Of a stretch of 64,000 bases of DNA, positions 18,401 through 48,400 are shown one piece after another. The translations under genes were made by a program, and so were the position numbers. How positions within the stretch are numbered: position 1 is the first letter of the stretch; each line of letters opens with the position of its first letter. This DNA comes from Tubiluchus corallicola. Its lineage: Eukaryota > Animalia > Priapulida. Under the pieces are notes generated by a model. The model ran no database searches. It was not told the origin of the DNA and was given only the letters and a program-made list of their open reading frames with translations. Location of the stretch: NCBI GenBank assembly GCA_030141605.1, contig JAQGDQ010000022.1, positions 744,001-808,000 on the forward strand, written 5' to 3'.

Positions 18401-21400
18401 ATGTTCACCTTTAAGTCGTCTGGGCCAGTTGCACATAGGTATAAAAGTTGACAGTAAACGTCTGGAATTTCTTTGATAAAACAGTACCTTGACAGTTTTG
18501 ACTTGGTGTTTATTTCGCTGGACATTGTTACCAACATTGCTGAACTTCTTTGGATCGTTTTTCAACGTGACCTGGACATTTGTATCATCATCCATGTAGT
18601 TGAACACCAAAACCCGTATGTGGACATCTTCACCGCGGACAACCGAATAAGGAAGGTCTAACTGGACGAAGAATGGACGCTTAACTGTAATCTGAAAAGC
18701 AATAGCAGTGAAAAGTGTTATTAAATGCTAAGCTTCTACATAATTATATTTAAGGACAATTATTTCTGATTTATTAAATGTGGGTGTCACACACTAAACA
18801 AGCTCCAGGAACTTAGGCATGCAGCAAAGTTAAGTCATCACCTAAGTCACAATTGTTTTTTTTGGAAATTATTTGCTTAACAAAAAATGACCTTACTGTA
18901 AGTAAGATAAGATTTGAGCTTAGGACGTCTGAGTTACAAACCCACTGTCTGTGATTTTTATCATACATGGTCCTTCCCTTATTGCGGCTTTATAGTCTTA
19001 ATTAAGATCGCTACATAATAATATAAAACTTTGCACATGTCTGCAGGCTAAGCGGGTGTGTTTCTTAGCATTATTATTGTGCGCTGAAATAATATTAGGA
19101 AAATACAATATACCTTCGCAGTTTCATCTCCTACTCCAAGGCCATACATTTTATGCATGGAAAATGCGCTAGCAACCCAAGAAGTAATGGTGTCTGGCAC
19201 GTTTGTATTAATGTCTGCTTTACCGTTGGCTCTTTAAAAAAAGTTGAATTTAGTTAATTTAACATAGCTCAACAATCCGTAAATTATCCAAACTCACAAT
19301 ACGAATGAAACAAAGATACGGCTAACAAACTTTACAGAGTGCAAAAAAGAGTAAGTTTTTCAGTCATTTAAATTAAAGTCTTTAGTATTGTGTATAACTT
19401 ATTAATCATCAATTTTATGCGCCTTTTGTATGATGCATGACAACTTATAAATATGATGAAAGCTAAGTATTTACGACGCATACATAAGTCTTATAGGTAC
19501 GCATAACAATATACTGGAAGAACTAAAAATAGGTTTTATTAAAATTTAATAATAATAACAATTGTAACAATTAGTGCATGTACATCTTACCAGTATGAGA
19601 AATCACTACTGTTATATTTAGAAAGAAATGAAAATTTAAATATATTGTGCTATGTGAAAATTAAATATGCATTGTTAAAAGTAAAGTTAGTAGTTTGTTA
19701 GTAGATTAGCTTCTGTTAATGTCAGCAACACATGGCGCAATGCCGATGGCACTTTTATCTAAAAGTTTAAAAAAGCAAAACACCATAGTAACCTCCAGTG
19801 AAATTTCCACCGTGGCATTTATTTTGTCTTAATGTAAAATGTAAAAATCTATTTTGTGTGTTGAGCTATGTAGGCCTGTGGAGTATTTGCTTAGAATGTA
19901 CATGTTCTACCTGACGAGATTTCTATGAACACAATAAATGTGCAAGTTGAAGAATGGTTAGCTTGAGCAGTAGAGCTTGAGTATATAAAATCATTGACAA
20001 TTGTTAGAAAAATACAATGGAGCCAATATGGAACCTCGCAGAACTGTATTTCATTACAACAAAGTTACCCTGCAGTCGTGTTTATCCAAAGCCAACTTTC
20101 AGGAAAATCGACCCTTGTCTTTTGTTCTAATATTTTATTGGGCGTGGCAGTGCCCGGAGGCGACGCAGCAGCAAAGACCGTGGCAACAGATTCGTCTTCG
20201 AATGCAACCCCTTCAGGATAGGCATAGTAATCATAATCATCTTGCGTGCGTACTGTAATAAGTACATTTCACTATGAGCTTAACACAATTAATAAAACAC
20301 AATTGATGGATCAGTGATTACGTTTTACTAATACCTGCTTACCATTTGCAAATGAAACAAAAGTTTAAACTTCTCATTTGCCGCGGTTTTTCTAATGAGC
20401 TGTTTGAGAAAAAAATTCTGAAATGAATGTAGTTATTTCATCTAATCGGGCGGTCTGAATATCTACTGCGCCAGGTACTCTACACTTTCTACAATTAGCA
20501 AGTTCATCGTTTTTAGGAGGAAATAATACCAAAATTGCGCGTAACTCCATTTAGATGGGGAAAATCATTAGGCCTATTGCCAAACAAGTACTGTGTTATT
20601 TCACAGGCCGACTATTTCCCCTTTTTTTAGAAATCTCTTCTCATAGCAATCTTAGTTCAGCACAATGCTTTTCAGTGAAGCCAGTAGCTGCATGAAACTA
20701 AGCTAAGTTTTTTTCTATTCCCCAGCATCAGTTGAACCAGGAGTTTTTGCGGTTTTTGTTAGTTCCTCACTTCTTGTCATCTTATCGAATTTTGTTTTGT
20801 GCTTTTCTTGCAGTTCTTTCTTGCATTAACACCGCCCATGTGTCGTCACACATCCAAAGCCAACAATGCCTTTTTAACATAATATATTTGTTTTAAATGA
20901 TTAGTCACCTGACTATCAAAAATTTGCACAAAAGCGTATGCATAAATCATATCAATCATACGTTTTACATCAATTACATTTCTGTAACATGCTCTCATGC
21001 AAATTATTGTCTCGTAAAAAATTACATTCGCTTTAAAGCCAAAAATGTTATTGGCTTTGTAATTGTCATTACAATGTATAAAGACACACAAAAGAATTGA
21101 TGTTTTAAAAGAAATTATTTAGACAGTTTTTACAACTTATGATCCAAAAATGTAAAAATATTGCGATCGTGACTTCTACAAATTCCCCAAACTATCGCTC
21201 TGACCTCGTGATTGTCACCACGGCCCCAAGAATACAGCTGGCTGGAGGATAATCCCTCGATATTGTCCTCAATGTAGGCATTATTTATATAAATAATAGT
21301 ATACATTTGGAACATACTGTGCTATTTCTGTGAAACAAATGCCAGCATCTACAAAACTCTTAAGAAACTTGTTGACATCCAGTGACATGCGAAATGGTTA

Positions 21401-45400: not shown

Positions 45401-48400
45401 TAGCAAATAAAACATTGCTGAATGCTGATTAAAGATACAGCACCATGTTACACTTGGAGTATCGGGAATAAAGCTCAACTGAATGAATGTTCAGTGACCA
45501 CTTTTAGGTGTTTCGTGGCACGGCTTCTAGAAATTTGACTGTGACTTTATCAGGGACGTAATAAAAAATTATGACCCTTGAATTTTCCTCTTGGTCATAT
45601 TAGGCGAAGCACGCTTTGGGGAAATTAAATGCTTTTACTCACTTGAATGCTTTCCTTTGTGAAGGTTTTAAATTTAAAATGCCCAGTTTTAATAGCAAGC
45701 ATTTTTGCTAATCGTGGTTTCAGATTAAGGTCCTATACCTTTCAATACATGTAGTGATCCAGATGGAGCTAATCTCAAGGAAGAAGAGCCCACTGACCAC
45801 AAAAAAACAAAACTGGGAAGAGATCAAATTTCTGGACGAAAACAGTAAAGCAGCTACTGTTTTTTTAGTGAACGTTAAATGATGCGTTAGCAGACTGGTG
45901 CCTGCTTGGTTAACTGTGCTGAACAGTTGAGCATGTCAAGTTCATAAGAGTTGAACAGAGTAACTTTTTAATTAACATGTCAACAAATTTGATTGATTTT
46001 TTAAGCACGGAAGTGTTATGGTGTTATAATGAATTCTCAAGAATAGATGTTACACGAATTAATTCAAAGTACAGATGCATCTACAGGACACGGAGGAGAG
46101 TAGAGTGGTACAGAATGTATTTTTCAAGTTCCATTTCCTTTTTATATTAGCAGAAAGAATACGCTTATATCGAATTCTCACCCCACTGTAGTATTAATCC
46201 ATAGCCAAGATTCTGGAAAATCTTTGCGGACTTTTGGTATGGGGGCCAGAGAGCTTTGCGTGGAATGTTTTGTTTGAATCTCATGCCTGTTGAAACCACC
46301 GCTAAGTCCTAAGGTACCCCCACCAGTGCGATATTGTATTTTAGATTGTATAAAATCTTCTGAAAGAAATCAAGTCACTTATCAGTTCGGAAAATTCCAC
46401 TTCATGGAGCTAAAGCGTGGAACAGCTAGAGTTGTATTTATAGTTGCATATCATTTATCCAGCATGGCAATATAGAAAAGAAACAACAAGATGCTGACAC
46501 ACAGGCAGCAATATTGAAGATATTGCTACTAAAGATCTGAAGATAATGCCAGCATAAGCTCTCAGGATCTCTTTAATTAAGAAGTAAAAATTATTAATAC
46601 CCAACTATAACGACACAAAAATTGGCTGCCGTCCATTGAAACTGCGAAGCGTGGCTACGCACGCTTTAATTTGGTAGAGCAATGTGCCCAAATAAGCGAA
46701 TCAGTAAATTTGAGCAAAAATTCTATATTTAGAGCTGCAAGCTTTTAACACAGCAAAGTAAGGCAACTTTAGCGCTGGTTCTTTCTAGACCATTTCACTC
46801 CTTTAATGAATTGAGTCATTGGTCTACCCATTTTTACTACCTGCTAGCTATATCAACTTTCTTTGCACTGTGTCACGAAAAACGCTCTCTCTGGTCGCCC
46901 CATGAAAAATGCTTGATCAGATACACAAGACACTACTACAAACTACTGTTGGCCATAACACATAACTATGCTCTTGCTGGTTATTTCTTTTCGGTCCGTA
47001 CAAAATAAGTACAGACCGAGGACGGTTTCTAAAAGTGCTGATCTTTTGATACAACATCTGCCAAGCACTTACAGAAAAGCCAAGACAGGCCCTGTACACG
47101 TTGTGAGAACATTTACAGTTTGTCCGATTCAAAAAAGCCAGAATATCTTCTAGACATTTAATTAATTGTAAATTCCTTGATTTGATGATGTCGATGAACA
47201 ATCAAATGAGAAAACGTATGAAGTCATCAAGATTCATTTACTTGTTGGAACTTTTTTCCATCAAAAAGCATGTAAACAGAGTGCACAATAGAAGAGGCAA
47301 ATCTCACAGTCGTTTCCCTTTGATAATTCACCATTTTAGATTAAACAAAAGCTATTCATACCTCCATACACGTAGGTATCAGATAAGACAACTAGTTTAG
47401 CTTCCTCGAAGGTTTCCCATGCATTACCGCTGCTGTACCACAGCCATGGCCACCAGAAAGACGAACGCTTCTTTCTGTCTAAGATGATAGGCCCACCACT
47501 AGCATAATAGCCATTCCTTCCAGAACCATAAGCATCATCAAAGCCATAACCCTTCATGTCATCAAGAACCTGCAAATCACCGTCACACTTAGACAGTTAG
47601 TACTGTTATCTTACTATCTAAGATAGTTAGTACTTGGTATGTTATCTAACTATCTAAATGAAAAAGTAAAGCAGAAGCAATGGACCTGTAATTTGTGCTT
47701 TGTGTGTTCTTAAATTTAGAAATTTGGTTTTGCAATTTCATTTCTAATAGTCATTGTGTAACCTAATTTGATTGAATGACTGATTGATTAATTCTACTTT
47801 TATTTCAGACTAGAAAGTCTATATGAAATACAACACATAACATTAGTGAAATTTAAATTGGCTTAATGAAAATCTAATTACGAAAATGAAAATCTAATTA
47901 CGAATTGCGCACAGAGGTGTATATATATATGCCAGCACACGATTATAGGACTATAATTACATTTGCCCGATTATCAGTTAATATCGTATATACGTATATA
48001 TACATATATATATAATACATATATATAATGGGTGCATATATAACTGACGAGGCTACTGTCCGACGGCTTATGAATGGGAACATGCCGGGAGCAGTGCCAG
48101 TAACTGTTAGATAGCCCGTTAAACACTGGGTGTTATAGTCTTATTTAGACTACGCAGGACGGCCATTAATACCCGCCAAGTGCGCTTTCCCGGACCTATA
48201 CACCCAAATTTTGTAGAAAACTGCACAAGCAACCTCGAGGAAGACTCGATTTGCACAACTGTTTGGGCACGTTGGGAAAAGCTAAGCACACTCCCAGAAA
48301 GAGGACGAAATGGTCTACAAGGCACTGGAGTTTCACTAGGAGAGGTGTATACTGGATAAAACGGGAGGGGTGCATTTTGAAGTTCTTTCTCAACCTTCTA

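What the first reader, a model, noticed from the sequence alone, without database searches (positions are those of the whole stretch)
19114..47569. Reading-frame lock favours exactly-one-exon choice; the selection mechanism is unidentified
Seen: the upstream exon ends in phase 1 (GGA G|gt), the downstream exon starts in phase 2 (ag|A GCC), and all ten intact exons are 3n+1 nt (178, 211, 247, 217, 217, 184, 187, 226, 172, 184) despite different lengths. Including zero, two or three exons frameshifts the message and would probably trigger NMD. Conservation of length modulo 3 argues for selection on each copy. The introns (0.5-10 kb) are too long for steric exclusion, so competing docking/selector RNA pairing as in Dscam1 is a candidate (inference). 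I could not identify such elements by eye.
Basis: partly seen in the sequence, partly recalled or inferred. Interest (0 to 1): 0.7.

Follow-up and report, generated by a model that had tools for sequence, protein, structure and literature searches.

The report
Ten swappable bait exons, inherited lock
An invertebrate immune gene (closest match: a priapulid worm's CD109) carries ten tandem alternative exons for its predicted protease-bait segment, and only messages with exactly one of them read through, but this frame rule is likely inherited from the ancestral single exon, as in snail relatives, and no element that picks the exon was found.

Summary
Observation confirmed. A CD109/iTEP thioester gene on the minus strand has ten intact bait-region exons, all 3n+1 nt between a phase-1 donor and a phase-2 acceptor, plus four dead copies. 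Each single-exon message is open; all 1014 other subsets, including the frame-restoring 4-, 7- and 10-exon ones, carry a premature stop. The lock is real but likely inherited rather than evolved for exclusion. Snail BgTEP2 (12 mutually exclusive exons) has the same lengths modulo 3 and the same phases. Single-copy snail TEPs have a 3n+1 exon at the matching place, and 19 of 29 constant internal exons here are not 3n either. Keeping 3n+1 per copy is what single-exon translatability demands. No Dscam-type docking site in either flanking intron beat real-sequence controls; one helix around the last exon (19751-19705 with 20864-20822) remains a weak lead. No RNA was available to test exon choice. 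Likely mechanism: splicing-level choice of one exon with NMD as a passive filter; NMD alone could yield at most 39% productive messages. Such arrays are published for fly, scallop and snail, and this scan noted one on other DNA. New member of a known kind.

The parts
9427..58360 (-). CD109/iTEP-type thioester protein gene: 30 constant exons plus one variable exon per message; first (signal peptide) exon not located
   Evidence: Spliced model with V2 gives a 1505-residue open frame with GCGEQ. The model from exon 54211 onward is open with each of the 10 V exons. Pfam A2M_BRD, A2M and TED_complement on single exons. Best hit Priapulus caudatus CD109-like, 66% on exon 15736-16068.
47362..47569 (-). 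Upstream constant exon, 208 nt, ends in phase 1; encodes RKKR (furin-type site, recalled motif)
   Evidence: 56% identical to P0001
46182..46359 (-). V1, 178 nt
44831..45041 (-). V2, 211 nt; internal AG at +22 would allow an in-frame V1+V2' message
44018..44264 (-). V3, 247 nt
42654..42870 (-). V4, 217 nt; aligns to the one bait segment annotated in the Priapulus protein (44% over 50 aa)
40969..41185 (-). V5, 217 nt
33884..40855 (+). BEL/Pao LTR retrotransposon inside the array, antisense to the host gene; 528-nt LTRs 99.2% identical; 5-bp target duplication
32421..32705 (-). Dead copy A, 285 nt (3n), chimera of a V8-like 5' part and a V4-like 3' part, with stops
30054..30237 (-). V6, 184 nt
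28890..29050 (-). Dead copy B, V4-like 3' remnant (ends approximate)
27121..27307 (-). V7, 187 nt
25462..25687 (-). V8, 226 nt
24200..24340 (-). Dead copy C, V9-like 5' half with an acceptor, 3' end lost (end approximate)
22868..23039 (-). V9, 172 nt
21554..21790 (-). Dead copy D, V8-like, 237 nt (3n), stops in frame, AG and GT still present
20822..20864 (-). 5' arm of a predicted long-range helix enclosing V10 (weak lead)
   Evidence: -40.6 in the scan, -43 duplexfold, present in the MFE fold of 20950-19600; 7 of 47 control windows gave an equal or stronger best helix
20069..20252 (-). V10, 184 nt
19705..19751 (-). 3' arm of that helix; best candidate downstream docking segment, not supported over real-sequence controls
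19114..19231 (-). Downstream constant exon, 118 nt, starts in phase 2; the only AAG acceptor among 30 constant acceptors
   Evidence: Pfam A2M positions 13-47

Best explanation
This is a tandem array of ten intact and four dead copies of the bait-region exon of a CD109/iTEP thioester gene, likely spliced one copy per message, whose 3n+1 frame rule was likely inherited from the ancestral single exon rather than evolved to enforce exclusion. Shown: each copy alone gives an open frame, and every other subset spliced at the main sites carries a premature stop with many junctions downstream. Inferred: copies arose by unequal recombination (one dead copy is a V8/V4 chimera) and are kept at 3n+1 because a copy that drifts cannot be translated even alone. 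The choice itself is likely made at splicing, by short or GU-rich competing RNA pairings or by repressor proteins as in other multi-exon clusters, and NMD would clear the errors as a passive filter. The protein outcome would be thioester proteins with different protease-sensitive baits in front of a shared FPE-W-W strand.
For: Anatomy and frames. Snail BgTEP2 exon 22 variants: 10 of 12 are 3n+1 by both listed length and coordinates; for the other two (22-H, 22-C) the two figures disagree and one of them is 3n+1. Several variants end GG|gt after the W codons, so phase 2 (PMC7016707 Table S4; arithmetic by hand). In Table S3 the exon before the 118-nt/114-nt pair is 178 nt in BgTEP1, 100 in BgTEP3 and 118 in BgTEP4, all listed as single exons (homology inferred from the size pattern; the downstream exon here is also 118 nt). 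19 of 29 constant internal exons are not 3n, and 13 are 3n+1. Off-frame stops match synonymous shuffles. Fly Tep2 isoforms swap a segment with the same 5' boundary and the same conserved 3' end. Birth and death of copies. Competing RNA structure is called the major mechanism for multi-exon clusters (PMC6071210, passages).
Against: No RNA from this locus shows any V junction, so one-at-a-time splicing is inferred from relatives. The splicing-level selector was not found: neither flanking intron beat real-sequence controls. V acceptors are not weaker than constant ones (mean 7.5 vs 6.6, p 0.34), so nothing in the acceptors points to default skipping; V donors score slightly lower (5.5 vs 6.9, p 0.04). 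An NMD-only scheme is arithmetically workable (up to 39% productive). Inheritance of the phases does not exclude later selection to keep them. Table S4 lists the snail downstream exon as 145 nt and Table S3 as 118 nt.
Confidence: 0.65

Rival explanations
1. NMD-only exclusion: each V exon is included independently at low probability, and decay of all messages with 0 or 2 or more exons is what leaves one-exon mRNAs.
For: All 1014 non-single subsets carry a premature stop, including the 331 frame-restoring ones, which removes the published objection that NMD cannot serve clusters of more than three exons (PMC6071210). Yield is up to 0.387 at p=0.1. No docking site was detected.
Against: It wastes at least 61% of transcripts of a 49-kb gene. 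V acceptors score like constitutive ones, so an inclusion rate near 0.1 would itself need repression; at p=0.5 the yield is 0.01. Off-frame stops show no enrichment.
Confidence: 0.15
2. A Dscam exon 4/9-type downstream docking site at 19751-19705 pairs with selectors in the array introns and loops out all exons 3' of the chosen one.
For: Helix with 20864-20822 at -40.6: 0 of 25 whole-intron shuffles and 2 of 122 local shuffles reached it, and it forms in the MFE of the V10 region. The same 55-nt segment also pairs with 33064, 31103, 26399, 25273, 24817 and 23693, the last through 13 exact Watson-Crick pairs.
Against: Real windows from outside the array do as well: 15 of 47 on the mean, 41 of 47 on the median, 7 of 47 on the best helix; Watson-Crick only, 14 of 34. 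The median was not significant against local shuffles (43 of 122). Partners after V1, V2, V4 and V9 are weak. The arms after the paralogous V8 and dead copy D do not align.
Confidence: 0.12
3. A Dscam exon 6-type upstream docking site at 47105-47045 pairs with selectors just 5' of each V acceptor.
For: Against shuffled controls: 1 of 60 (mean, 150-nt flanks) and 0 of 60 (weakest partner, 400-nt flanks) in both shuffle types.
Against: Against random real intron windows of the array, p was 0.045-0.997 over 12 comparisons. The top 40 partners are scattered rather than placed before acceptors. The segment is GU-rich and pairs promiscuously.
Confidence: 0.05
4. Most copies are rarely or never spliced, and the array is a decaying duplication with one or two working exons.
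For: Four dead copies and a recent retrotransposon sit inside the array. The Priapulus protein on record shows only one bait segment.
Against: Ten copies keep both splice sites, the frame and the conserved 3' motif with pN/pS about 0.3 despite strongly diverged 5' parts.
Confidence: 0.03

Closest known systems
Biomphalaria glabrata BgTEP2 exon 22 cluster (PMC7016707; passages, section 3.3, Tables S3 and S4 read)
   Same: 12 mutually exclusive bait-region exons in tandem over 30 kb with a conserved 3' end; lengths 136-232 nt, 3n+1 in at least 10 of 12; same phases; next exon 118 nt in Table S3
   Different: All 12 were recovered from transcriptomes there, none here. This gene has a hydrophobic C-terminal tail of CD109 type, four dead copies and an LTR element inside the array. 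The parts read give no selection mechanism.
Drosophila Tep2/TepII exon 5 cluster (5 exons; PMC6071210, PMC7016707 and PMC11765297, passages; proteins)
   Same: Alternative segment begins at the homologous position and ends in the same R-x-x-F-x-E-x-W motif
   Different: Five exons, not ten; exon phases not checked here; not among the genes listed with reported competing structures in PMC6071210
Chlamys farreri CfTEP (six mutually exclusive exons, seven isoforms; seen only as cited in PMC7016707)
   Same: Same region, same kind of cluster; isoform use reported to depend on tissue and pathogen
   Different: Original paper not read; phases not checked
Priapulus caudatus CD109-like XP_014676905.1 (P0001)
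   Same: Likely orthologue: 52-81% identity over constant exons; all ten V exons hit its residues ~718-794
   Different: Only one bait segment is on record; its genomic array could not be examined
Dscam1 docking site/selector clusters (PMC6071210, PMC12962786, passages)
   Same: Tandem duplicated exons with introns too long for steric exclusion
   Different: No docking site or selector set detected here above real-sequence controls

Membership tests
CD109/iTEP thioester proteins (A2M superfamily) | Thioester motif GCGEQ in a TED domain | tested here: met
   Exon 16068-15738; Pfam TED_complement E 1.8e-18
CD109/iTEP thioester proteins (A2M superfamily) | A2M_BRD and A2M domains flanking a variable segment | tested here: met
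   PF07703 E 2.5e-11 upstream; PF00207 positions 13-92 on the two exons after the array
CD109/iTEP thioester proteins (A2M superfamily) | Best matches are CD109/iTEP rather than C3 or A2M | tested here: met
   Named hits among the 120 listed of 295 are nearly all CD109/TEP, a few carry A2M-like or CPAMD8-like automatic names; no tree built
CD109/iTEP thioester proteins (A2M superfamily) | Signal peptide and GPI anchor signal | tested here: inconclusive
   Hydrophobic C-terminal tail seen, no predictor run; first exon not located
Mutually exclusive exon cluster (criteria of PMC3228551) | [quoted passage not shown] | tested here: met
   172-247 nt, 10 of 10 AG/GT and 3n+1, shared 3' motif
Mutually exclusive exon cluster (criteria of PMC3228551) | Transcripts hold one and only one exon | not testable with these tools
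   No RNA run showing V junctions of this locus was available
Dscam-type docking site/selector system | One intronic element complementary to an element beside each variable exon | tested here: inconclusive
   Not above real-sequence controls. Planted 20-nt selectors were detected in 6 of 6 trials, 10-16 nt in 2-4 of 6, so only long uniform selectors in the two flanking introns are excluded.
Dscam-type docking site/selector system | Cross-species conservation and compensatory change | not testable with these tools
   No genome of the host or a relative is held
Steric exclusion | Intron between alternative exons too short to splice | tested here: not met
   Shortest is 566 nt
U2/U12 spliceosome incompatibility | Mixed major and minor splice sites | tested here: not met
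   All ten donors are GT with U2-type context (U12 consensus recalled)
NMD-enforced exclusion | Every non-single product has a premature stop with junctions downstream | tested here: met
   the skip-all stop has 13 junctions more than 50 nt downstream; leaks through alternative AGs are possible
NMD-enforced exclusion | Such products are made and are stabilised by NMD inhibition | not testable with these tools
   Needs RNA and knock-down

The most novel reading that the evidence does not exclude
TEP bait-exon arrays across protostomes need no docking site: the ancestral phase-1/phase-2 exon made every duplicate self-policing, so a ten-exon cluster is enforced mainly by NMD. That would explain why this one exon was expanded into arrays in flies, molluscs and priapulids, and would overturn the view that NMD cannot serve clusters of more than three exons.
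Probability: 0.15. Interest if true: 0.65.

Novelty: new member of a known kind. Interest (0 to 1): 0.22.

Why it matters
It adds a likely priapulid example to bait-exon arrays known from flies, scallop and snail, and shows that the frame rule is shared with the snail cluster and probably older than the arrays. How TEP clusters pick one exon was not found in my searches, so the question appears open, but this window does not answer it. It gives a clear test case: every non-single product is a predicted NMD target, so one knock-down with long reads separates splicing-level choice from decay.

Tried and rejected
Whole genome: none held. RNA search: no RNA holder listed. Run X1 behaves as DNA contigs with allelic differences and showed no joints over 18400-33800. 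Run X2 laid nothing there at 85% likeness, which proves no absence. At 80% on 40900-58500, X2 gave spliced contigs about 90-95% alike at five CT..AC joints of the 15 shown (31 more not shown), matching the constant-exon model. It also gave one deep contig that matches the 3' end of V1 and then runs into downstream-exon-like letters; hand translation of its loose ends suggests a paralogue, so it was not used as evidence on exon choice. Protein search for other priapulid isoforms with the upstream exon: 1 hit among 14 candidates, in a cluster of 1. Docking scans: four layouts with 400-nt flanks, 3-21 of 30 shuffles as strong on the mean. The upstream candidate was rejected on real-intron controls. 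An intron-exon helix of that segment with V9 (-40.0) was matched by 5 of 25 shuffles. Self-BLAST of the array found intronic similarity only between close paralogues, no motif common to all flanks, and only local hairpins on the minus strand. MFE folds of the two flanking introns gave z -0.89 and -1.82 on 20 shuffles each. Selection for extra off-frame stops was rejected. A full duplexfold scan timed out. Graveley 2005 is not held, so Dscam statements rest on PMC6071210 and PMC12962786. PMC9013439 had no passage on frame or NMD. No listed paper among 15 of 137 mentioned priapulids. Helix energies in my own scan use stacking values recalled from Turner 2004, without initiation or end penalties, so they are for comparison only.
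Full report
What is there. The region 19114-47569 is the middle of a thioester-protein gene on the minus strand. A model of 30 constant exons plus one variable exon (58360 to 9427) gives a 1505-residue open frame with GCGEQ, and the part from exon 54211 onward is open with each of the ten variable exons. Single exons hit Pfam A2M_BRD, A2M and TED_complement. The best protein match is Priapulus caudatus CD109-like (66% on the thioester exon, 153 bits against 111 for the next hit), so the host is likely a priapulid; no genome is held. 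The first exon was not located.

Check of the observation. All 1024 subsets were translated: the 10 single-exon ones are open, and 0 of the 331 frame-restoring subsets (4, 7 or 10 exons) are. Every exon has 4-10 stops in the frame reached after one other exon, and the skip-all message stops 98 nt into the downstream exon, with 13 junctions more than 50 nt further on. So all 1014 other subsets are predicted NMD targets; that they are degraded is inference. AGs at +2, +14 and +17 of the downstream exon open the skip-all message, and 15 two-exon messages are open through internal AGs. Only V2+22 scores like a real acceptor (4.0; the others -3 to -11).

Is the lock selected? The intact copies are under purifying selection at their 3' ends (pN 0.22, pS 0.72 and probably saturated, 45 pairs, last 18 codons). 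The two dead copies with both ends placeable are 285 and 237 nt, both 3n. That supports selection on each copy, but only the selection any alternative exon needs to be translatable alone; a shared frame is a search criterion for such exons (PMC3228551, passages). The asymmetric phases look inherited. In snail BgTEP2, 10 of 12 alternative exons are 3n+1 by both listed length and coordinates; the other two have conflicting figures, one of which is 3n+1 (PMC7016707 Table S4, arithmetic by hand). In Table S3 the exon before the 118/114-nt pair is 178, 100 and 118 nt in BgTEP1, 3 and 4, which list no alternatives there (homology inferred from sizes). Table S4 gives the BgTEP2 downstream exon as 145 nt and Table S3 as 118 nt. 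In this gene 19 of 29 constant internal exons are not 3n, so duplicating a random exon would give a lock more often than not. Off-frame stops are not enriched (60 vs 57.3 +- 3.9 and 26 vs 27.8 +- 2.7, 2000 synonymous shuffles).

History of the array. Self-alignment groups V5/V6/V7, V8 with dead copies A and D, and V4 with dead copies A and B; V9 aligns weakly with dead copy C. Dead copy A has a V8-like 5' part and upstream intron and a V4-like 3' part and downstream intron, which points to unequal recombination (inferred). A BEL/Pao element with 99.2% identical LTRs and a 5-bp target duplication lies between V5 and dead copy A.

Search for a selector. I scanned both flanking introns for helices with the array (own script; stacking energies recalled). 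Two candidates looked good against shuffles. Upstream, 47105-47045 scored 1 of 60 and 0 of 60 on two statistics, but against random real intron windows p ran from 0.045 to 0.997 over 12 comparisons. Downstream, 19751-19705 pairs with 20864-20822 around V10 (-40.6; 0 of 25 and 2 of 122 shuffles), appears in the MFE fold of that region and has weaker partners in several other introns. Against 47 real windows from outside the array, 15 matched it on the mean, 41 on the median and 7 on the best helix. With Watson-Crick pairs only, 14 of 34 windows matched each intron. Planted selectors in all 13 intervals exceeded the strongest control in 6 of 6 trials at 20 nt and in 2-4 of 6 at 10-16 nt. A long uniform docking site in either flanking intron is therefore unlikely; short, AU- or GU-rich sites, or sites elsewhere, are not excluded. 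V acceptors are no weaker than constant ones (p 0.34), V donors slightly lower (p 0.04) and mostly GTGAG (that matrix used 29 exons, one with a start corrected later). The downstream acceptor is the only AAG among 30, an untested lead.

RNA. No run showed junctions of the variable exons (details under Tried and rejected), so one-at-a-time splicing is inferred from snail, scallop and fly.

Mechanism. Most likely the choice is made at splicing, by short competing pairings or repressor proteins that I could not identify, and NMD removes errors because of an inherited frame asymmetry (0.65). NMD alone is not excluded: with independent inclusion at p=0.1, 38.7% of messages would hold exactly one exon. 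The published objection that NMD cannot serve clusters above three exons (PMC6071210, passage) does not hold here, because off-frame stops close the 4-, 7- and 10-exon routes. It is costly, though, and still needs low inclusion rates (0.15). Steric and U2/U12 exclusion fail their tests.

Known systems. Mutually exclusive bait-region exons are published for BgTEP2 (12 exons over 30 kb), Drosophila Tep2 (5) and CfTEP (6) (PMC7016707, passages, section 3.3 and two supplement tables). TepII is listed as a five-exon cluster and is not among the genes with reported competing structures in PMC6071210. A search for thioester + mutually exclusive + docking site + selector returned two unrelated papers, and three other searches listed no title on a TEP selection mechanism. 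The library lacks most subscription journals, including the CfTEP and Graveley papers.

Verdict. New member of a known kind; interest 0.22.

Noticed in passing
window 33884-40855 (+): Young BEL/Pao LTR retrotransposon (528-nt LTRs, 99.2% identical, 5-bp target duplication) inserted antisense inside the exon array; coding region lies in several ORFs in different frames.
   Followed up: partly
window 17243-18480 (-): LINE-type reverse transcriptase fragment (RVT_1) in the intron after exon 18691-18488, in the same frame as that exon, with an exact 261-nt tandem duplication (17690-18211) that may be an assembly artefact.
   Followed up: partly
window 23893-24230: Exact 169-nt tandem duplication at the broken end of dead copy C; a 95% identical 76-nt tandem pair lies at 42381-42532.
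   Followed up: no
window 21554-21790 and 32421-32705 (-): Dead copies D and A keep usable acceptors (scores 6.0 and 4.4) and weak GT donors; if spliced in they would act as poison exons.
   Followed up: partly
window 19232-19234 (-): The acceptor right after the array is the only AAG among 30 constant acceptors and is followed by a second AG at +2 that would put a skip-all message in frame.
   Followed up: partly
window 3403-5868 (-): Intronless 821-codon sodium:neurotransmitter symporter (SNF, E 2e-176) with a long acidic repeat-containing tail, downstream of the TEP gene; lack of introns suggests a retrocopy.
   Followed up: partly
window 25661 and 42805: The two X1 allele differences listed inside intact V exons (V8 Y/H, V4 A/T) are both amino-acid changing and lie in the variable 5' part; too few to interpret.
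   Followed up: partly
run X2 on window 46186-49343: A deep RNA-like contig (depth 639) matches only short conserved stretches, suggesting a second, highly expressed TEP paralogue in that organism.
   Followed up: no
window 48100-49050, 52200-52460, 56160-56750: High-copy repeats in constant introns (summed X1 depth above 1000).
   Followed up: no
window 45159-45260, 25101-25257, 22635-22706, 21271-21307: Local inverted repeats within about 400 nt of V2, V8, V9 and dead copy D; not shared between flanks.
   Followed up: no
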